From positions 3,968,001 through 4,032,000 of the forward strand of contig CM000153.2 in NCBI GenBank assembly GCA_000004695.1: a stretch of DNA of 64,000 nt, given 5' to 3'. The notes beneath the pieces were generated by a model that saw nothing but the letters and a program-made list of their open reading frames with translations, was not told the DNA's origin and made no database searches. The DNA is from Dictyostelium discoideum (Eukaryota). The position numbers and the translations under genes are program-made. Positions 2,001-60,845 of the stretch are shown in pieces (positions within the stretch are counted from its first letter, which is position 1; every line of letters starts with the position of its first letter).

Positions 2001-2862
2001 TTTAATAAATTATTGGAGGTAACAAAGACTTTTCTCAAGGAGTTTTTAATGTCGGTTCCTCAATAATTGAATAATAAAAAAAATAAAATTAAAGAATAAT
2101 ATAAAACAATTAAAAAAATAGATTTTTTATCTTTTTTGTAGTCAAAATTAACATATTTCTAATTTGATTTTAAAAACATTTACCAATATTAATAAATTAA
2201 CATAAAATAAACTATAAACAAATTCATTAGGAAAATATCCGTTATTTTATTTTTTCACAACTATAATTTTTTTTGTTAAATTAATTGCCTTTTTTTTTCG
2301 AATTTTTAATTGTATTATTACTTTTGATTAAAACATCTTTTTTGTCCAAACTTTTTTCTTAATCTTTTTTATTTTATTTGTGGTCGGCTTCGTGATTGAT
2401 GTTGATGACATATTTGAATTGTTTTATTTTATTTGTGTTTTGTCTTGGCTTATTTTTTGTAGGCATTTGTATTGCATAATATTTGTGGTGTTTTTGTTTT
2501 TTTTAAAAGTCTTTTTATTTGAAAAATGAAATAATCAAATAAAAGAGATTGTAGTTGTTGGTTCACTAAAATGGAGCCTATTTTTTTTTTTTTAATGACC
2601 TCATCCCAATTTATTTAATAGAGGAATTCAAAGCGAATTTAATGATTAAATAATGGTAAAATAAAAAATTTGTTAGGTAGTAGGGCCACTCACCCCCCTT
2701 TTATTTTAAGAGTTTTTCAAAAAAAAAAAATTTTAAGTAAAAGCAAGGTATTGGATCGATAACATTGAGATATATATATATGAAAAATATATGATCTAAT
2801 TCGGGATTGTCCTTTTGTTTTTTAGTTTTAATTTATGTAAATATAATATTTTTTCAACAAAT

Positions 2863-2935
2863 GCCCAGATAGCTCAGTCGGTAGAGCGCAAGGCTTTTAA
2901 CCTTGTGGTCGGGGGTTCGAGCCCCCCTTTGGGCG
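2863..2935 (+). tRNA. tRNA-Lys, anticodon UUU, 73 nt, no encoded CCA
   Basis: The sequence folds as a cloverleaf. Acceptor stem is GCCCAGA paired with TTTGGGC, D arm is GCTC-AGTCGGTA-GAGC, anticodon loop is CTTTTAA with anticodon TTT, T arm is GGGGG-TTCGAGC-CCCCC, and the discriminator is G. It is near-identical to eukaryotic tRNA-Lys(UUU). Confidence 0.95.
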
Positions 2936-2964
2936 AATTTTTCAAACCACTCAATATAAGTCGA

Positions 2965-3816: not shown

Positions 3817-4755
3817 CTATACTTTCTTAATGCAAACACCATATGGTCTAATATCTGCGTCATTTGGAGATATCCAATATTGAATATTGTCTATTTTTAT
3901 TACAGTCTTTGGATTGACTCTATTTTGAAATACTATTACATAATGACAATTATCTTTTTTAAAAGTTCTTCCATATGTTTTTGCAATGTCAATTGATGGT
4001 GTTGAGTATATACCAACCCCAAATGCAAATCCGGAACAACTTGATAGTTTATAACCTTCCATAGCAATTGGATTACAAGATTCCTCTTTTGTACCATGGT
4101 ATGAAACCAACCATTCGTTTGGACCATTACAAAATCCTAGCCAAGTTTTTCCATCAGTTTCTGTGTTATATTTATTTATATTTAATGCAAATCTCATCCA
4201 ACCACATGGGCGAGTATATACTTCACTACCACGACTATGAACAATTGAATCTTTGATGTTTGTAAAATCATAATCAAATGATGGCGAAATAAAACTATCA
4301 TTAATGAAATAAATAAAACTGGTACCACCTCCACCTCCTTTTAAACCAATTTCCATATGAATAGTTGATCCATAGGTAATGTTATAATCTGAAATTAGAT
4401 GATCATCTTCTAGTTTTTTCCCACAATAATATAATGTTTGAAATCTTACAGGTAAATCAATTTTATAACGAATTTTTCCCTTTATATTTTTTACCAATTC
4501 AGATTCTTTAACTTGAAGCCAAAATGATTCTCCATTTAATGGCTTTATTATGATATTTGTTGTTCTAATTTCTACTTGATTAATATAGTTAAAATCTGTA
4601 TTTGTTGACTGTTCATGTTGCAAAAAACGTTTGTGAAAAGATTCAACCTCTAAAGCAATAAAACTATACCCCAAATAATTTTGCTTTTCACTTTCATAAA
4701 TAACCAAATGATTATAAATTGCTGATAATCCAAGAGTTAATAAAGATTTATCCAT
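3817..4755 (-). CDS. Ubiquitin-like domain protein with a C-terminal PARP-like ADP-ribosyltransferase-fold domain. Single exon of 312 aa, starting at MDKS; the ORF-track Met upstream is a non-ATG start.
   Basis: A ubiquitin beta-grasp signature lies at residues 70-146 (IIIKPLNGESFWLQV...KIRYKIDLPVRFQTLYYCGKKLEDDHLISDYNITYGSTIHMEIGLKGGGGG). The C-terminal 160 aa carries LVSYHGT, then about 20 aa, then GFAFGVGIYSTPSIDIAKTY. This parallels the PARP1 catalytic core LLWHGS...[20 protein letters not shown]. Confidence 0.6.
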   Translation of the reverse strand: MDKSLLTLGLSAIYNHLVIYESEKQNYLGYSFIALEVESFHKRFLQHEQSTNTDFNYINQVEIRTTNIIIKPLNGESFWLQVKESELVKNIKGKIRYKIDLPVRFQTLYYCGKKLEDDHLISDYNITYGSTIHMEIGLKGGGGGTSFIYFINDSFISPSFDYDFTNIKDSIVHSRGSEVYTRPCGWMRFALNINKYNTETDGKTWLGFCNGPNEWLVSYHGTKEESCNPIAMEGYKLSSCSGFAFGVGIYSTPSIDIAKTYGRTFKKDNCHYVIVFQNRVNPKTVIKIDNIQYWISPNDADIRPYGVCIKKV

Positions 4756-5236: not shown

Positions 5237-7427
5237 TTACATAAATTGGAATTCATCTAAGAATGCATTTACATCACGAAGATCAGCTTTTTGAACCAAA
5301 TCTTCTCTATTCATTAATCTGAAAACCATTTTCAAATTATCCCAAATGTTTGGAGCTGGATGGATTGCAATAGCACCCAAAAATGTTGTAGCTGATTCTT
5401 GAAACATATTTAAAGAGAGGTAACTGATACCAAGATTACTACGAGCTCTAACATAGGATGGTTTATGTTCCAATGCTTTAAAGTAAGCACCCAATGCCTC
5501 TTGAGAACGATTACTATTGGCTAAAGTTGCACCAAGTTTATTCCAAAGTTGATAATCGGTTGGTGAATTTTGAAGGGCAGCTTTAAAACAATCGACAGCT
5601 TTATCATAATCATAGGACATATTGTAGAGAAGACCGAGAGCAGTTTGTACCTCTGGATCAGGGTTGCTTGGTCTTGAACGAGCAGCCTCAATAAAGAGGT
5701 TAGTTGTGAATTCATGACGTGACCAAGTGTCTAAAAATGAGTTTGGATCGACAGAACCCTTGAATTGTTTATAGAGTGCTGTATATTCGGGTGTTCTTTG
5801 TAACCATTCTTCGAGGGTATCCAATGCACGCTCCTTTTGATAATCATTTGTATGACTAACTGCCAATGCTAATCTCGCTTTACTATTGGTTGGATCGATT
5901 TGTAATGATTTGATTAAACAAGTGGTTGCTTGACTATCTTGATCATTCTCTGCATGAGCGATACCTAAATACATCCAAGCCATTGCATTCTCTGGATTTC
6001 TCTTTACTTCACTCTCCAATGCAATGATTGAATCCGATAGATGACCTTCATTAAATAATCCCATACCACGTTCTAATGTATCGCTATCTCTTGCCTCTTG
6101 AATTGAGAATTGATATTCTTGAATACGATGTTGTGGTATATGTTCATGAAAATCATTATAATCCTCTGTCCATTGATCTGCTTGTTGTTGATACTCCTCT
6201 TGTCTCTTAAAATCTGGATTGTGTACAACATCTGAACCAACAATCGATGCCTCTCCACTATTCAATTGATTCATAAACTTCATGAAATTGGATTTCTTTA
6301 ATTTTGGATCATTAATTTGTGTAATTGGACGAGTTATATCACTAATGGTTCTACGTGCAGTCTCATCCCATGCTGCTTCAACTGATCTATCCGATTCTGT
6401 CCATGCTGAATCATATGGATGAAAATCATCTCCTTTATCCCATTCCTCATCTAATTCATAATCCTCTAAATCACCATCATCAAATAACTCTTGTTGATGT
6501 TGTTCATAATCTTCATATTCTTCTGGTAAATCATTTACATATTTTTGATATTGATCATATTGACCTGTTGTTGTTGTTGTAGTTGTTGTAGTAGTAGTTG
6601 TTGTATGATGTGGTTGTGAATCCCAAACTTGATCAAAATCATCACCAACTTCAATACCTAATGAATCTAACATTCTATTTAATTGATCCTCTTCAAATTG
6701 TTCTGATTCTCCGTTTGAAAAATGTTTTAACATAATACTAGATCTATTTTTAATCTTTGATTTATCTTCAAATGTTAATGGTAAATGATTTAATGATGAT
6801 GGATGAAATAATTGCTAAAAAAAAAAAAAAAATAATAATAATAATAATAAAATAATAATATTGAAATTTTTTTTGTTTTTCTTTTTGTTAATAATTATAT
6901 ATTATATTATATTGTATTATATATAAATATTTATTTTTATATGCTTACACCAGCTCTTGTAGAATTTATAAAATCTTGAAATAAAAATTGTAAATCACTT
7001 TCAACATTTGATAATGGTAATTCTTTATGTTCTCTTGGACCATCTCTTAAATTTAAATGTCTATCCATCATTAAATGAATGTCATCCTCTTGTCCCTCAC
7101 CATCAAATATACTATCTAAATGACGTTGTTCATTATATTCCTCTTCGTGACGATATAATGAATCATAAAATTCATTCTTTCCATGATCTTCAAATTTATC
7201 CTAAATATATGTGTGTATGTATATGTTATGTATATATTATTAATAAATTATTTAAATTTTAATATTAGTATGATATCTAATAAGAAACTATTATGTGTAA
7301 TATAAATTATTATTAGTTATTGTTTACATACATGATATGATCTTTCATTTGTAAAATGTTGAACGAAATTGCCAAGTGCGTTTGGTTCAGAGCATTCTCC
7401 TTCTACTAAATCTCTGAAAACTGACAT
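5237..7427 (-). CDS. pex5: Peroxisomal targeting signal 1 receptor PEX5. Three exons on the minus strand: 7427..7332, 7200..6949, 6814..5237, about 641 aa.
   Basis: Exon 1 encodes MSVFRDLVEGECSEPNALGNFVQHFT, matching the PEX5 N-terminus MAMRDLVEG...HFTQDK. The introns are GTATGT..TAG and GTAAGC..TAG. The C-terminal TPR region AMAWMYLGIAHAENDQDSQATTCL...ALAVSHTNDYQKERALDTLEEWL matches PEX5. Confidence 0.85.
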
Positions 7428-8132: not shown

Positions 8133-12036
<3,904 letters not shown>

Positions 12037-43861: not shown

Positions 43862-44367
43862 TATTTCCTAATATAAAAAAAAAAAATATATAAATAAATT
43901 TTTTTTTTTATTTTTATTTTAAAATTAATTATTATTATTATTATTATTATAAATTATTATTATTATTTATTTATTTATTAATTTATTTATTTATTAATTT
44001 AAAATTTAATGGAAAAAATAATAATTATAAAAATAAAAAAATATTAGAATTATTTTAAAGTTTTTATGTATATATAGTTTTAATTTCGAATTTTTTTATT
44101 CAATAATATTTTTTATGTTGATGGTTGATTTGGATTAAATTAATAGCAGGAATAATAAATATAAAAAAAATAAAAGATAAAAAAAAAAAATAAATTGTGT
44201 TGATAAAAAAAATAAAAAAATAATAAAAAAAAAAAATTTAATTTAAGATGGATTACAAAAATACTAAAATTGGGTAGATAAATAATAGTGTTACCAATCA
44301 GAAAAAAAGTTTTATATTCGAAGTACATTTTTTTTTTATCTTTTTATTATTATTATTATTATTATTT

Positions 44368-44406
<39 letters not shown>

Positions 44407-45913
44407 TATTTATTTATTTAAAACAACCAAAAACAATAATAGATACATGAAAAAAGGATTTAATTGAAAAAAATAGTAATAATAAACACACAATTATGAC
44501 AATGCCATTTTAATACATATTGATTAATTTTATTATTATTTTTATTATTATAAAATTTATATGCTTACTTTTTTGTTTTATTAATTATTCAATCCAATTT
44601 CTTTAAATTGAGTATAAAAATAAAATAAAAAATAAAATTAAATATTATTTTAAAAAGTACAATATGATGCGTTGTTATTACTATAATTGATTATTTTATT
44701 CTTTTAATATTTCTTAAAACAACATAGTAACAAAATATAAAATTTTAATTTGTATTTTATAAATATATATATATATATGTGTGTATGTATGTATCTAGTT
44801 TGTATAGATAAATATTTTAAAACTATATCTTGGTTTTTTTGTTTTTTTATTTATTATTTAATTTTTTTTTTTTTTTTTTTTTTTTAATAAAATTTTAAAT
44901 TTAATATTTGCTTATTTTTTAAAATATTAAAATAATAATTAAATCATTAATTTAAAAGTTTTACAAAATTTAAGGAATAAATGGGAATTAAAACATATGT
45001 TCATACAAAACAATACCAATAATTATTATTTTTTTTTTTTTTTTTGAAACACACACCCACATAAAAAGTTCAAATTACTAAAAAATACAGATATTTGTGT
45101 GGTTCATTTTTTTATTTTTTTATTTTTTTTTTTTTTTTAAATGGATTAAGGAAAATTATTTATATACCCACATTAAAAAATACATAAAAAAATTTTATAC
45201 TCTCTAATTTTAATTTTTTTTGATAATTTTTAATATTAAAAAGTGTTGTGTGCTGTTATATAAAAAATTCCACCCCACTACCAATATTTTTGATGTGTTA
45301 GTGACTTTTTACAGAATATTTGAAAGTTATTGGAAATAACCTCAACTATCCGTAATTATGTTATTATTATTATTTTAAATTTACAAATACAAATAAATTG
45401 TTTGTTATGGTATTAAAAACTGTTTTCCAAATGTATAGAAACCCCAATAAAAATTTATTTTAAAGTAAAGAATGAATGATTTTTATTCACCATTTTAAAA
45501 TTATTATTTTTTAAAATAGTAGATTTAAAATATAATAGTTACTTTCATTGTTTGAAAATATTATTATTATTTTTTTATTTTTTTTTTATTTTATTTTTTT
45601 TTAAACATAAAAACACTTTTTTTTTTTTTTTTTTCAATAATAAAAACAAATTCATAAAAACAAACCCAAAATATCTATTTTAGATTTTAAAGAATAAAAA
45701 AATAAAAAAATAATAAATGATTTGGTGGATTATAAAGTGTGTGAGTGTGTTGAAAAATGAAAATGCTTATTACAATTTTTGGTGTTAAATAAAAATGATT
45801 TACTTTTTTCGTCTTTATTTAATCATTTAGATTATAATTTATACTACAATTAAAAATATACACAAATAAAATTCTATATTTTTTAATTTTGGAAATGATT
45901 TAATCAAAATTTT

Positions 45914-45946
<33 letters not shown>

Positions 45947-46321
45947 CTACACATTTATTTAAATAAAAAAAAAATTAAAAATGAAATAAAAAATAAAACT
46001 TTTAATCATTGTAGTTTTATTTCTACAAAAATATTTAATAATTTATGATATATCATATTAATACCATTATTTTTTTTTATTAATTTATAAATTATTTTAT
46101 TTAATTACTAGTAATTTTTAATTAAATTGTAAGATAGTTTATGAGGATGTACCATCACATTTTATTTTATTATTTTTTTTTTTTTTTTTTGGCATATCGT
46201 GATATTTTTTTTTTTTGGATAAAATTTTTTGTTTACTTTTTTTTATGTTTTTTTTTCTGTTTTTTTTTTTTTTTTTTTGTGTGTTTTTTTTTAATGGTAT
46301 TACTATTAATTTAGTGTGTTA

Positions 46322-57992: not shown

Positions 57993-58031
57993 AATATTAT
58001 TAAACTTTATAAATTGCTACATATGACACTA

Positions 58032-58064
<33 letters not shown>

Positions 58065-58105
58065 CTCTTAATTTTATTTACAACTTTATTTTTTTAAAAA
58101 TACTT

Positions 58106-58533
58106 TTAATGCATTTGAACTGCAAATTGTTCTCTAATTTTCTTTTCATTCTTCTTTTTTTGTGATAATCTCTTTGCAACTTTTTTCCTATCTTGTTGTT
58201 TTTCATTTTCTTTTTGTATATTTGATTGAATAATATCTCTCTTTTTTTGTGCTGCTCTTGATTCTGATGATACAATAGTTTTCTTTCTTAACAATTTTAA
58301 ATTCTCTTCTAAAATTTTATCTTGATCCACTTTTTGTTTAATAACTTTATCTAAAATAAAATTTTAAAATTTATATAAGTAAAAAAAATAAAAATAAAAA
58401 TAATAATAATAATAGTAAAATATATATGAAAATATTTACCAAGTGGTGATTTCAATTTTTGAAATCTTTTATTTACTCTTAATTCTTCTCCATTTAAAAC
58501 TTTTAATTGTTGTTTGATTACTTTATTTGACAT
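58106..58533 (-). CDS. Small lysine-rich coiled-coil protein. Two exons, 58533..58440 and 58350..58106, about 112 aa.
   Basis: Two short minus-strand ORFs join in frame through a GTAAAT..TTTTAG intron. The product is basic (KKRDIIQSNIQKENEKQQDRKKVAKRLSQKKKNEKKIREQ) and may be a Cgr1-like nucleolar protein. That assignment is speculative. Confidence 0.45.
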
Positions 58534-58601
58534 TTTATTTAATTAATAAATATATAAAAAAAAATTTCCCCAAGACAAAAATAAAAATTAAAATTTCTTT
58601 C

Positions 58602-58651
<50 letters not shown>

Positions 58652-58983
58652 TTCCAAATTAATCATATATTTTATCTTTATAATTAAATTCACAATCTTG
58701 TTGTTAATTTATAGATAATTTATCTCAAGATCTTTCAATAATTCTGAAATATATAAAAAGAATAAAAAAATAAAAAAAAATAAAAATAAAAAAATAATAA
58801 TAAAATAAAAATAAAAATTAAAGGATAATTTTGATTAATATATTACTAGCTTCAGTTTTAATTAAATAAATTAATACAAATATTTTATGTTGTTTTATTT
58901 ATTTATTTTAAATACATTAAAAATTTTATTTTATTTTATATTATTTTATTAGGTTTGGAAAAAAAAAATATAATATTTATTTA

Positions 58984-59055
58984 AATAAATAATAAAATAA
59001 AATAAATAAAATAAAATAAAATAAAATAAAATAAAATAAAATAAAATAAAATAAA
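58984..59055. repeat. (AAAAT)n-type microsatellite of about 14 units
   Basis: Read directly. Confidence 0.85.
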
Positions 59056-59319
59056 TTGAAAAAAAAAAAAATGAAAATGAAATTAAACAATTGAATTTTA
59101 ATTTAGAGAAAGGTATTAAGGATAAAATGGATTTTTTTTATTTTTTTAAAAAAAAACTAATAATCTTTATTTTCTTTTAAAAAGTAATTCTAAATTATGT
59201 GTTATAAATAGTTTTTAAATAATTGACTCTAATTAAATCATAGGAATTAAAAATTATAAAACTATAAAAATTGGTTAAATAAACCCAAAAAATAAAAAAA
59301 AATAAAAAAATTGTTGGTA

Positions 59320-59362
<43 letters not shown>

Positions 59363-59517
59363 AAGGTATCACAGCCCAAATTCTTTGGATTTTTTTTTTT
59401 TTTTTATAAAAGGAAAAATAAAATAAATAAAAAAATAAATAAATAAAAAAAGACCGGTCGTTTTTTTTTTTTAAAGTTTTTTTTTTTAATTTGGTTTAAA
59501 AAAAAAAACAAATTTTG

Positions 59518-59551
<34 letters not shown>

Positions 59552-60845
59552 CAAAACCAAATTTTTTCATTTTTTTTTTTTATTTTTGGGTTTCTGTTTT
59601 AAATTTTTTTATTTTTATACATTTGTTGATTTAAAAATTCACTCATATATTTATTTATTATTTAGAGAAGATACATTGTATTTTTATAAAGGCTATTAAT
59701 TGGTAGGTTTAATTTTGGTTTTCATTTTTCATATAAACATGGTTTTGGTTTTTTTTTTTTTTTTTTTTTCCTTCACAATCTTTGATTCCATCGATAAAAA
59801 AAAAATCAAATAGGTTATATTTTTTTTTCTTTGTGCCAATCTCATTCAAACCCATCAAAAATATATTAAATTTTTTTTTAAAAAAAAAAGAAAAAAAAAA
59901 ATCCTTCATGTTTGTGCTTCTGTTGGGGGTGAAGAAAATAATAATAATAATAATAATATTAATAAAAATAATAATAATAATAATAATAATAATAGTAACC
60001 AAAAAAAAAAAAATTTTGGTTGTTGGGAGGGGCTATCCGAACACATAGATTCTTCAAATCCATTTTTTTTTTTTTTTTTTTTTATTGGGAAAATTTTTGG
60101 TAAAAAAAAAAAAAAATTAAAAATAAAAATAATCACAAATATCCACACCCCCAAAAAAAAAAAAATCATAAAAACACACAAAAAGACGGTTCTTTCATTG
60201 ATAACTCCACCACACACACAAAAATAAAAAACAGTACACACAGTTGAAAAAAAAAAATATATTTTTATATTGTGAGTAGTTTGTTTTTTTGACTATAGAA
60301 ATATTGAAGAATGGTTTCATCTCATCTTTTTTGAAATATATAAACACAAAACACATTCATAATACACACACACACAACATTAACAAAAAAATAAAAATAA
60401 TAAAAAAATAAAACAACAATAATAATAAAAATAATAATAATAAAAACAAAAAATAAAATAATAAATTGTAAAAAAAAATCCAACACTAACATAAAATTTT
60501 ATTATCATTTTCCAAATTTTAGATCTTCACAATAATATATAAATATATAATTAAACCAAACCGAAAGATATACTTCCCACAAAATAAATAATAAATTGTA
60601 ATAATAGTAATATTTTTAAATATATTAATAAAAAAATAAAAATAAAATAAAAAATAAAAATAAAAATAAACATATAAAATAAAAATAAAAATAACAATTA
60701 AAAAAAAAATAATAATAATAAAATAACAAAAATAATAAAAATAATAAATAAAAAAAAATAATAATCTATACTAAAAATAATAATATAAATACATATATAA
60801 AAGAGAATAAAATAAAATAAAAATAAATATTTTTTTTTTTTTTAA

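What the first reader, a model, noticed from the sequence alone, without database searches (positions are those of the whole stretch)
3817..4755. Ubiquitin-like domain fused to a PARP-like ADP-ribosyltransferase fold
A single-exon 312-aa protein carries a clear ubiquitin beta-grasp signature ending in a poly-Gly linker. It is followed by a roughly 160-aa domain whose motif order reproduces the PARP/diphtheria-toxin H-Y-E catalytic core. The elements are HGT, then about 20 aa, then GFAFGVGIYSTPSIDIAKTY, which matches PARP1 HGS...[20 protein letters not shown]. In the third catalytic position the segment reads CHYVIVF where PARP1 has NEYIVYD, so the Glu appears to be replaced by His. That would be a non-canonical triad. 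A Ub-ART fusion is of interest given known crosstalk between ADP-ribosylation and ubiquitin. I do not recognise a named family with this architecture. Alternative folds in the same clan, Tpt1/KptA or TNT-like, are not excluded.
Basis: partly seen in the sequence, partly recalled or inferred. Interest (0 to 1): 0.65.

Follow-up and report, generated by a model that had tools for sequence, protein, structure and literature searches.

The report
Ubiquitin-fused NEURL4-like ADP-ribosyltransferase paralog

Summary
An uninterrupted 312-codon ORF lies at 3817-4755 on the minus strand. It encodes a 45-residue N-terminal element, a ubiquitin domain (Pfam E=4e-14) ending in GLKGG-GGG, and a 168-residue C-terminal domain.

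It is not an unnamed family. A profile of 98 homologues aligns to the published NEURL4-like ART family at 97.9% probability (E=5e-13). That published set already contains Dictyostelium, Glomeromycota, Nematostella and Daphnia members of this Ub-fused subfamily.

H271 lies in a hypervariable column, and its strand aligns with the PARP strand that follows the second Tyr. The real motif III is "IQYW": this column is Glu in 85 of 98 homologues and aligns to NEURL4's experimentally required ELEW. The triad here is therefore H220-Y250-Q292.

The gene belongs to a young, fast-evolving Dictyostelium sub-clade with pseudogenised siblings and a degraded Ub surface. It is most likely a weak mono-ART or an NAD-binding pseudoenzyme. 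Verdict: new member of a known kind, moderate interest.

The parts
3817..4755 (-). Complete single-exon CDS, 312 codons plus TAA stop (3817-3819)
   Evidence: ORF list and translation. Co-linear with an intact 317-aa paralog at L001:7608-8561.
4621..4755 (-). N-terminal conserved element, aa 1-45 (helix 3-14 carrying the family motif LLxAAxSSLxG, here SLLTLGLSAIY, then short strands and helices). Function unknown.
   Evidence: AF2 pLDDT 86-95 over aa 1-40. L5/L6/A9/S11 columns conserved in 67-79 of 98 sequences. The element is present in multi-Ub and Ub-less relatives. No Pfam hit.
4564..4620 (-). Low-confidence linker, aa 46-64
   Evidence: pLDDT below 50 for aa 48-61. In-frame indels relative to the paralog lie here.
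4333..4563 (-). Ubiquitin beta-grasp domain, aa 65-141, ending in L138-K139-G140-G141 (the Ub L73-R74-G75-G76 positions)
4324..4338 (-). Gly5 junction (aa 140-144): the Ub di-Gly plus three extra Gly, a flexible Ub/ART boundary and possible DUB site
   Evidence: Sequence. pLDDT below 50 at aa 140-143. G75 kept in 88/98 and G76 in 86/98; the next residue is G in 70/98.
3820..4323 (-). NEURL4-like (PARP-related) ADP-ribosyltransferase domain, aa 145-312
4186..4212 (-). Family-specific strand motif RPCGWMRFA (aa 182-190), shared with NEURL4 (PxGWCRFAL) and absent from PARPs
   Evidence: P183, G185, R188 invariant and W186 in 96/98. Aligned to NEURL4 PfGWcRFaL.
4090..4107 (-). ART motif I, VSYHGT (aa 217-222), with H220 predicted to be the NAD-binding His
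   Evidence: H220 in 97/98 and G221 in 98/98. Aligned to PARP16/PARP10 HGT and NEURL4 FHGT. NEURL4 HGS->AGA is part of an inactivating mutant.
3973..4020 (-). ART motif II, GVGIYSTPSIDIAKTY (aa 246-261): Y250 and Y261 with PARP1-like Y-x10-Y spacing
   Evidence: Y250 in 98/98, Y261 in 93/98. Aligned to PARP GxGxYFA. PARP1 Y896/Y907 numbering from the PMC7955679 supplement.
3916..3948 (-). Strand CHYVIVFQNRV (aa 270-280).
   Evidence: H271 column hypervariable; Q277 and N278 in 98/98, R279 in 97/98. Aligned to PARP10 HKAVFVARVLT and NEURL4 vaFQvxvrP.
3868..3885 (-). ART motif III, IQYWIS (aa 291-296). Q292 (3880-3882) occupies the catalytic-Glu position.
   Evidence: Column is E 85, D 3, Q 2, A 2, K 2 of 98. 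Aligned to the second E of NEURL4 ExEW, which is needed for NEURL4 activity. It immediately precedes strand 293-296. Q is also found in the closest paralog and in P0027.

Best explanation
The gene encodes a member of the ubiquitin-fused branch of the NEURL4-like ADP-ribosyltransferases, a PARP-related H-Y-E clade. The protein has three conserved parts: a short folded N-terminal element, a ubiquitin domain, and a minimal ART domain. The ART domain keeps the NAD+-binding half of the active site (H220-G-T, Y250, Y261). It has almost no loop between the last strands, where PARPs carry their 35-55-residue acceptor region. In most family members motif III is GEYW with a Glu. In this gene and its closest siblings it is IQYW, giving an H-Y-Q triad. 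By analogy with H-Y-[I/L/T/Y] PARPs and with what I recall of PARP1 E988Q, the protein most likely still binds NAD+ and transfers single ADP-ribose units at best, weakly, or it has become a non-catalytic NAD/ADP-ribose binder. It cannot be expected to make polymers. The Ub moiety in the family is near-canonical and ends in LRLRGG-G, so many members are probably cut by deubiquitinases or use the Ub as a targeting or interaction module. In this copy the Ub surface is degraded (I44Y, V70E, R72G, R42T) while L-K-G-G is kept. Shown: gene structure, domain architecture, fold class, family membership, residue conservation, and fast birth-and-death evolution of the sub-clade. Inferred: NAD+ binding, mono-ART or pseudoenzyme status, Ub processing, and any substrate.
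Against: No biochemical data exist for any Ub-fused member (literature searches). The equivalence of Q292 with PARP E988 rests on the NEURL4 alignment, strand order and conservation. A direct PARP alignment of the C-terminal strands was not significant and offered a different register, and I could not inspect model coordinates. The ART-only model used for the fold searches was mediocre (pLDDT 63). An ART-domain dN/dS of 0.75 together with the degraded Ub surface fits loss of function as well as it fits a weak enzyme. The invariant Q277-N278-R279 is unexplained by the PARP analogy and may mean the chemistry or substrate differs.
Confidence: 0.6

Rival explanations
1. Catalytically dead, decaying paralog (pseudoenzyme, or a gene on its way to becoming a pseudogene). 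The E->Q change at motif III, the shortened loop before it, the degraded Ub hydrophobic patch and relaxed constraint would mean the protein no longer transfers ADP-ribose and at most acts as a binder or decoy.
For: Q292 replaces a Glu kept in 85/98 homologues. ART-domain dN/dS is 0.75, and 1.26 for the N-terminus plus linker. Sibling copies are frameshifted or truncated: the P0001 locus, and P0006 at 126 aa and P0027 at 150 aa. The Ub carries I44Y, V70E, R72G and R42T.
Against: The ORF is intact over 312 codons in very AT-rich DNA. All other invariant family residues are kept (H220, Y250, Q277, N278, R279, R303-P-Y). Q is shared by two intact paralogs, so it has been retained rather than drifting. 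Ub dN/dS of 0.29 shows ongoing constraint. From my own knowledge, PARPs lacking the Glu are active mono-ARTs.
Confidence: 0.3
2. One reading: a non-canonical H-Y-H triad, with H271 in CHYVIVF replacing the catalytic Glu of PARP1 NEYIVYD.
For: Only a superficial pattern match between CHYVIVF and NEYIVYD (a polar residue followed by an aromatic and hydrophobic strand).
Against: The H271 column is hypervariable (K24, Q20, R12, E11, T10, N8...). It is E in the closest intact paralog. The strand aligns with PARP10 HKAVFVARVLT / PARP1 IGLILLGEVAL and with NEURL4 vaFQvxvrP, which is the strand right after the second Tyr. Two more strands follow it in the model, as in PARPs.
Confidence: 0.03
3. Ubiquitin-fusion precursor. 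As with Ub-ribosomal-protein fusions or polyubiquitin, the Ub is removed by deubiquitinases after G141, releasing a free ART domain and an N-terminally extended Ub with a free Gly-Gly. The fusion would serve expression, folding or stoichiometry. This reading is compatible with the best explanation rather than exclusive of it.
For: The family Ub is near-canonical (median 65% identity, up to 81%). The tail LRLRGG-G is the commonest form, with G75 in 88/98 and G76 in 86/98, and the next residue is Gly rather than Pro in most. The junction is predicted to be flexible (pLDDT below 50). Some relatives carry several tandem Ub units before the ART (P0119, P0134).
Against: Ub is never at the extreme N-terminus. 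A conserved, confidently folded 45-aa element precedes it and persists in Ub-less relatives, which suggests the N-element works together with the ART in one chain. In multi-Ub relatives the unit next to the ART lacks Gly-Gly. In this gene R72G and R74K weaken the recognition tail.
Confidence: 0.3
4. A different ART-clan enzyme: a Tpt1/KptA-type RNA 2'-phosphotransferase or a TNT-like NAD glycohydrolase.
Confidence: 0.03

Closest known systems
NEURL4-like ART family (C-terminal domain of human NEURL4; de Souza & Aravind 2012 as cited in PMC8932523 and PMC3417536; sequence set in the PMC7955679 supplement)
   Same: Homologous over the whole domain (hhalign 97.9%, E=4.6e-13). It shares the PxGWxRFAL strand, [FY]HGT, xSPSIxYA, FQxxVxP and the E-bearing motif before the last two strands. 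Close paralogs of this gene are already filed in that family's published dataset. The NEURL4 C-terminal domain has shown ART activity that depends on HGS and ELEW.
   Different: There are no neuralized-homology repeats; the N-terminal partner is ubiquitin plus a 45-aa element. Motif II has the canonical Tyr (GIYST), whereas NEURL4 proper has Phe or Leu (H-L-E in PMC7955679 Table 1). The 20-60-residue insert between motif I and motif II in NEURL4 proteins is absent. Motif III is Gln in this gene.
PARP/ARTD catalytic domain (PF00644), especially the compact mono-ARTs PARP16 and PARP10/15
   Same: Best structural matches. HGT and GxGxY...Y motifs with the same Y-x10-Y spacing as PARP1. Like H-Y-I/L/Y PARPs, it lacks the catalytic Glu.
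   Different: It fails Pfam's gathering threshold (16.8-18.4 bits against 26.7). It has no helical regulatory domain, and only about 5 residues where PARPs have a 35-55-residue region before motif III (Y261->Q292 is 31 residues, against 81 in PARP1 and 55 in PARP10). It has its own invariant GWxR and FQNRV signatures.
Ubiquitin-fusion precursors (Ub-ribosomal protein fusions, polyubiquitin)
   Same: A ubiquitin unit ending in Gly-Gly is fused directly to a C-terminal extension protein. Some relatives have tandem Ub units.
   Different: The Ub is internal (66 residues precede it). In this gene the Ub is only 42% identical to ubiquitin, with the I44/V70 patch and R72 lost. Cleavage is untested.
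Systems that couple ADP-ribosylation and ubiquitin (Legionella SidE mART acting on Ub R42; DTX3L/PARP9 acting on Ub G76). From the reference lists of PMC7955679 and my own knowledge.
   Same: An ART and ubiquitin act together, and here they sit in one polypeptide.
   Different: There is no evidence that this ART modifies Ub. SidE has an R-S-E-type mART plus a phosphodiesterase domain, and DTX3L uses a RING-DTC module; neither is present here. In this gene the SidE target Arg42 is Thr.

Membership tests
NEURL4-like ART family | Profile-level homology over the whole ART domain | tested here: met
   hhalign of the 98-sequence family profile against 26 published NEURL4-family sequences: Prob 97.9%, E=4.6e-13, 116 aligned columns, query aa 41-166 of 170 against template 1-173 of 174.
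NEURL4-like ART family | N-terminal strand motif P-x-G-W-x-R-[FY]-x-L | tested here: met
   RPCGWMRFAL at aa 182-191. P183, G185 and R188 are invariant and W186 is in 96/98. Aligned to NEURL4 PfGWcRFaL.
NEURL4-like ART family | Motif I [FY]-H-G-[ST] | tested here: met
   SYHGT, with H220 in 97/98.
NEURL4-like ART family | Motif III acidic residue (E of ELEW); the family motif is quoted as H-Y-E[D-Q] | tested here: inconclusive
   The family column is E in 85/98, but this gene has Q292. Q is allowed by the 'E[D-Q]' wording quoted in PMC8932523. I could not read the original definition because the paper is not held.
NEURL4-like ART family | Close relatives already assigned to the family by its curators or users | tested here: met
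   Q54V68_DICDI, Q54V66_DICDI, F0Z762_DICPU (=P0003) and Glomeromycota, Nematostella and Daphnia entries are labelled NEURL4 in PMC7955679 supplementary file 5.
NEURL4 orthologue (the protein, not the domain family) | Neuralized homology repeats N-terminal to the ART; length about 1,500 aa | tested here: not met
   312 aa. Pfam finds only ubiquitin plus weak ART hits.
NEURL4-like ART family | NAD+-dependent ADP-ribosyl transfer | not testable with these tools
   Shown only for the human NEURL4 C-terminal domain (PMC8932523). No data exist for any Ub-fused member.
PARP catalytic domain (PF00644) | Score at or above Pfam's gathering threshold | tested here: not met
   16.8 bits (full protein) and 18.4 bits (domain alone) against a 26.7 cutoff. 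15/19 relatives hit at E<=1, best 4.8e-6.
PARP catalytic domain (PF00644) | ART fold most similar to PARP structures | tested here: met
PARP catalytic domain (PF00644) | H-Y-E triad | tested here: not met
   H220 and Y250 are present. The Glu position is Q292 (inferred mapping), as in no canonical poly-ART.
PARP catalytic domain (PF00644) | Extended region (acceptor/D-loop elements) between the strand after Tyr-2 and motif III | tested here: not met
   Only aa 281-292 separate strand 270-280 from motif III. The Y-to-motif-III distance is 31 residues, against 81 in PARP1 and 55 in PARP10 (numbering).
Ubiquitin family (PF00240) | Beta-grasp domain above the Pfam threshold, with a C-terminal Gly-Gly | tested here: met
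Ubiquitin family (PF00240) | Canonical interaction surface and tail (L8, I44, V70, R72, R74) | tested here: not met
   L8 is kept, but the query has I44Y, V70E, R72G and R74K. The family at large keeps them: I44 in 74/98, V70 in 78/98, R72 in 69/98.
Tpt1/KptA (PF01885) and TNT-like NADases | Profile or fold similarity exceeding that to PARPs | tested here: not met

The most novel reading that the evidence does not exclude
The Ub-ART family could be a self-contained eukaryotic ADP-ribosyl-ubiquitin module. The ART domain would ADP-ribosylate its own fused, or DUB-released, ubiquitin, for example on the exposed C-terminal Gly or a surface residue. That would produce a modified Ub for non-canonical conjugation or for blocking conjugation, analogous to bacterial SidE or to DTX3L/PARP9 but encoded in one small protein and expanded in lineages such as dictyostelids, Glomeromycota, rotifers and Hydra. 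The conserved N-terminal element would hold Ub and ART together after cleavage. This particular gene (H-Y-Q, degraded Ub) would be a derived or regulatory copy.
Probability: 0.08. Interest if true: 0.8.

Novelty: new member of a known kind. Interest (0 to 1): 0.33.

Why it matters
ADP-ribosylation and ubiquitin crosstalk is an active field, covering SidE, Deltex/PARP9 and ubiquitylation of ADP-ribose. Here ubiquitin is fused directly to an ART in a family with at least 2,570 sequence clusters spread patchily across eukaryotes, and no member has been tested. The useful outcome for this gene is a corrected active-site map: H220, Y250/Y261 and Q292, plus the unexplained invariant QNR. The analysis also shows that E-bearing paralogs, not this copy, are the better candidates for biochemistry. 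The ART homology itself is already in the literature and in public datasets, so this is an annotation refinement rather than a discovery.

Tried and rejected
2. AFDB50 Foldseek was not available.
3. Model coordinates are not exposed, so I could not measure the geometry of H220, Y250 and Q292.
4. hhalign restricted to the C-terminal strands against PARPs was not significant (Prob below 1%). It suggested another register (NPKTVIKI opposite NEYIVY), which I rejected because those columns are not conserved and the NEURL4 alignment is strong.
5. A global hhalign to PARPs was uninformative.
6. A possible intron in aa 28-62 was rejected: the segment is conserved as coding in the intact paralog and partly predicted with high confidence.
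7. Exact-product look-ups for the gene, its TPR neighbour and P0006 found nothing, so the source strain is unidentified beyond being Dictyostelium-like.
8. The founding papers (de Souza & Aravind 2012; Aravind et al. 2015) are not held, so I cannot say whether the Ub fusion was explicitly described there.
9. Viral and prokaryotic scans found no relatives.
10. A second copy in the window was sought by tblastn and none was found.
11. A UIM-like reading of the N-terminal helix was rejected because the Ala-Ser spacing does not fit.
PARP10 and three Pfam members came from the paper's supplements.

Full report
**Observation.** The window is very AT-rich (GC 0.14-0.32), and its homologues are dictyostelid. 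An uninterrupted ORF runs on the minus strand from the ATG at 4755 to the TAA at 3817-3819 and encodes 312 aa. Pfam places a ubiquitin domain at aa 68-136 (PF00240, 52.5 bits against a 25.4 cutoff, E=4e-14). The alignment to ubiquitin is end to end and puts G140-G141 on Ub G75-G76, followed by three more glycines.

**What the C-terminal domain is.**
- Alone, it has no significant PDB sequence hit and only a sub-threshold PARP hit in Pfam (16.8-18.4 bits against 26.7).
- It does have many homologues. One search returned 27 proteins, and a profile search returned 1,730. An exhaustive profile search found 2,570 clusters at 50% identity, 473 of them at E<=1e-30.
- Named sources are Dictyostelium species, Glomeromycota, bdelloid rotifers, Hydra and teleost fish. 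All are labelled hypothetical or "ubiquitin-like domain-containing", except that UniRef calls DDB_G0286017 a "PARP catalytic domain-c..." protein.
- A 19-sequence profile searched against PDB sequences returned only ARTs (PARP16, ZAP, exotoxin A, cholix toxin, PARP10), each below significance. Of those 19 members, 15 touch PF00644 (best E=4.8e-6) and 17 touch DUF3990.
- An AF2 model of the domain (pLDDT 63, pTM 0.65) matched only PARP1/2/3/4/16 ART domains in its top 50 Foldseek hits (prob about 1.0).
- The other ART clades scored far lower: Tpt1 4.5 and 3.5, diphtheria toxin 4.5, pertussis-type toxins 4.1 or less, and the TNT-like Tse6 3.2.

**Named family.** The literature describes a "NEURL4-like" ART family distinct from PARPs (PMC3417536; PMC8932523; PMC7955679).
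- The PeerJ paper's supplementary FASTA for that family let me build a 26-sequence profile. hhalign against my 98-sequence family profile gave Prob 97.9%, E=4.6e-13 over 116 columns spanning the whole domain.
- The same published set already lists Q54V68_DICDI, Q54V66_DICDI and F0Z762_DICPU (my P0003), plus Glomeromycota, Nematostella and Daphnia fragments with the GIYSTP / VVFQNRVNP / EYWISP motifs.
- So the ART homology of this subfamily is already on record.
- I could not read de Souza & Aravind 2012 or Aravind et al. 2015, so I do not know whether the ubiquitin fusion was discussed there.

**Active-site map.**
- In a 98-sequence full-length alignment (A2), H220 is kept in 97/98, Y250 in 98/98 and Y261 in 93/98.
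- The Y250-Y261 spacing of 11 equals PARP1 Y896-Y907.
- In the confident part of an hhalign alignment to PARPs (Prob 70%, E=4e-5), CHYVIVFQNRV pairs with PARP10 HKAVFVARVLT. In the PARP alignment that segment is PARP1 IGLILLGEVAL, the strand that follows the second Tyr.
- The better full-length model (pLDDT 82.7) shows five strands after the motif-II helix: 263-267, 270-280, 286-288, 293-296 and 302-311. From my own knowledge of PARP structures, this matches the PARP order.
- The residue just before the fourth strand is Q292. That column is Glu in 85/98 (D3, Q2, A2, K2), within a GEYW motif that resembles PARP1 NEYIV.
- In the NEURL4 alignment Q292 pairs with the second Glu of ExEW. Cardamone et al. 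abolished NEURL4 C-terminal activity with HGS->AGA plus ELEW->ALAA.
- I therefore assign the triad as H220-Y250-Q292. This step is inferred.
- Q277-N278-R279 are invariant. The Gln is shared with NEURL4 (FQ), and the motif is unexplained.

**The other parts.**
- The family's ubiquitin is near-canonical: median 65% identity to Ub, up to 81%. LRLRGG-G is the commonest tail, and R42, I44, T66, H68 and V70 are mostly kept.
- This gene's Ub is 42% identical to ubiquitin and carries R42T, I44Y, K63Y, V70E, R72G and R74K, while keeping L8, K48 and L-K-G-G.
- The Gly junction is predicted to be flexible.
- The first 45 residues are predicted with pLDDT 86-95. They carry a conserved LLxAAxSSLxG helix that precedes the Ub units in nearly every architecture I looked at.
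- Those architectures include proteins with about five Ub-like units (P0119, P0134), a kinase-containing model (P0030) and fish proteins with no detectable Ub (P0020, P0026).
- The conserved module is thus N-element, then Ub(s), then ART. The role of the N-element is unknown.

**Evolutionary state of this copy.**
- There is no second copy in the window.
- The best database hit, P0001 (69% identity), comes from a locus that is frameshifted and was annotated with artificial introns.
- Its neighbour is an intact 317-aa paralog, 82% identical to the window protein, which also has IQYW.
- Nei-Gojobori dN/dS between the two intact genes is 0.66 overall: 0.29 for Ub, 0.75 for the ART domain and 1.26 for the N-terminus plus linker. 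These estimates are noisy because dS is only about 0.16.
- P0006 (126 aa) and P0027 (150 aa) are truncated siblings.
- Other Dictyostelium paralogs are only 52-56% identical in the ART domain. They keep Glu or Asp at motif III and have a loop six residues longer.
- This is a young, divergent sub-clade evolving by birth and death.
- Pattern-plus-tblastn scans found no relatives in viral or prokaryotic collections.

**Mechanism.**
- Most likely the protein folds as a minimal PARP-like ART whose NAD+-binding His/Tyr/Tyr set is intact but whose catalytic Glu is Gln.
- From my own knowledge, H-Y-[I/L/T/Y] PARPs are active mono-ARTs and PARP1 E988Q retains only mono-transferase activity.
- By that analogy the expected outcome is weak mono-ADP-ribosylation or NAD/ADP-ribose binding without transfer, and not polymer synthesis.
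- For the family, the conserved LRLRGG-G tail makes deubiquitinase processing plausible. The conserved N-element argues that at least part of the function needs the pieces together.
- No substrate can be named.
- The rivals I kept are a dead, decaying pseudoenzyme and a cleaved-precursor reading; the latter is compatible with the main explanation.

**Verdict.**
- Observation: confirmed.
- Interpretation: partly supported. The Ub plus PARP-like ART reading is correct. The third catalytic residue and the "no named family" statement are not.
- Novelty: new member of a known kind, namely the Ub-fused branch of the NEURL4-like ARTs.
- Interest: moderate to low for this gene. The Ub-ART family as a whole remains biochemically untested and touches a topical question.

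Noticed in passing
window 4621-4755 (-), aa 1-45: A short N-terminal element (helix with the family motif LLxAAxSSLxG, then small strands and helices) is predicted with pLDDT 86-95. It precedes the Ub units in almost every relative, including multi-Ub proteins and fish proteins that lack Ub. It has no Pfam match and its role is unknown.
   Followed up: partly
window 3916-3948 (-), aa 277-279: Q277-N278-R279 (FQNRV) are invariant in 97-98 of 98 homologues, more conserved than the catalytic Glu column. The Gln is shared with NEURL4 (FQ). The PARP analogy does not explain this motif.
   Followed up: partly
L001:5001-5940 (GCA_054859355.1, JBTAPG010000076.1): The gene model for P0001 (243 aa, 'hypothetical protein ACTFIW_013067') is a frameshifted pseudogene of this family. 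The straight translation hits stops after about 50 codons, and the annotated product was obtained by inserting introns.
   Followed up: yes
L001:7608-8561: An intact 317-aa tandem paralog lies here, 82% identical to the window gene. It also has Q at motif III, and E where the window gene has H271. It did not appear in either homologue search.
   Followed up: yes
P0119 (915 aa), P0134 (847 aa), P0030 (1426 aa), P0028 (404 aa): Unusual architectures occur in the family. P0119 and P0134 have about five Ub-like units before one ART. P0030 has three protein-kinase domains interleaved with two N-motif/Ub/ART units, possibly a merged tandem array. P0028 has a duplicated half-ART, probably an assembly or annotation artefact.
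   Followed up: partly
P0020 (Engraulis), P0026, P0040 (Dissostichus): The teleost members keep the N-terminal motif and the ART but have no Pfam-detectable ubiquitin. They also carry an insertion before the last strand (…PPGTDAWQERDIVMGNIRPY…).
   Followed up: no
window 2862-2936 (+): A tRNA-Lys (anticodon UUU) gene lies about 0.9 kb downstream of the gene's stop codon.
   Followed up: no
window 5237-6733 (-): A 498-aa ORF encodes a protein with a C-terminal TPR array and an N-terminal acidic region containing a run of 13 Thr. By eye it looks like a PEX5-type receptor, but only the TPR repeats were confirmed. The true start may lie upstream across an intron.
   Followed up: partly
window 8536-12036 (+): A long ORF (1,166 aa as listed) contains MCM OB, P-loop and lid domains followed by about 600 residues with no Pfam match.
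   Followed up: partly
window 44001-46000 and 58001-60000: These stretches have extremely low GC (0.14). They are probably intergenic or repeat DNA.
   Followed up: no
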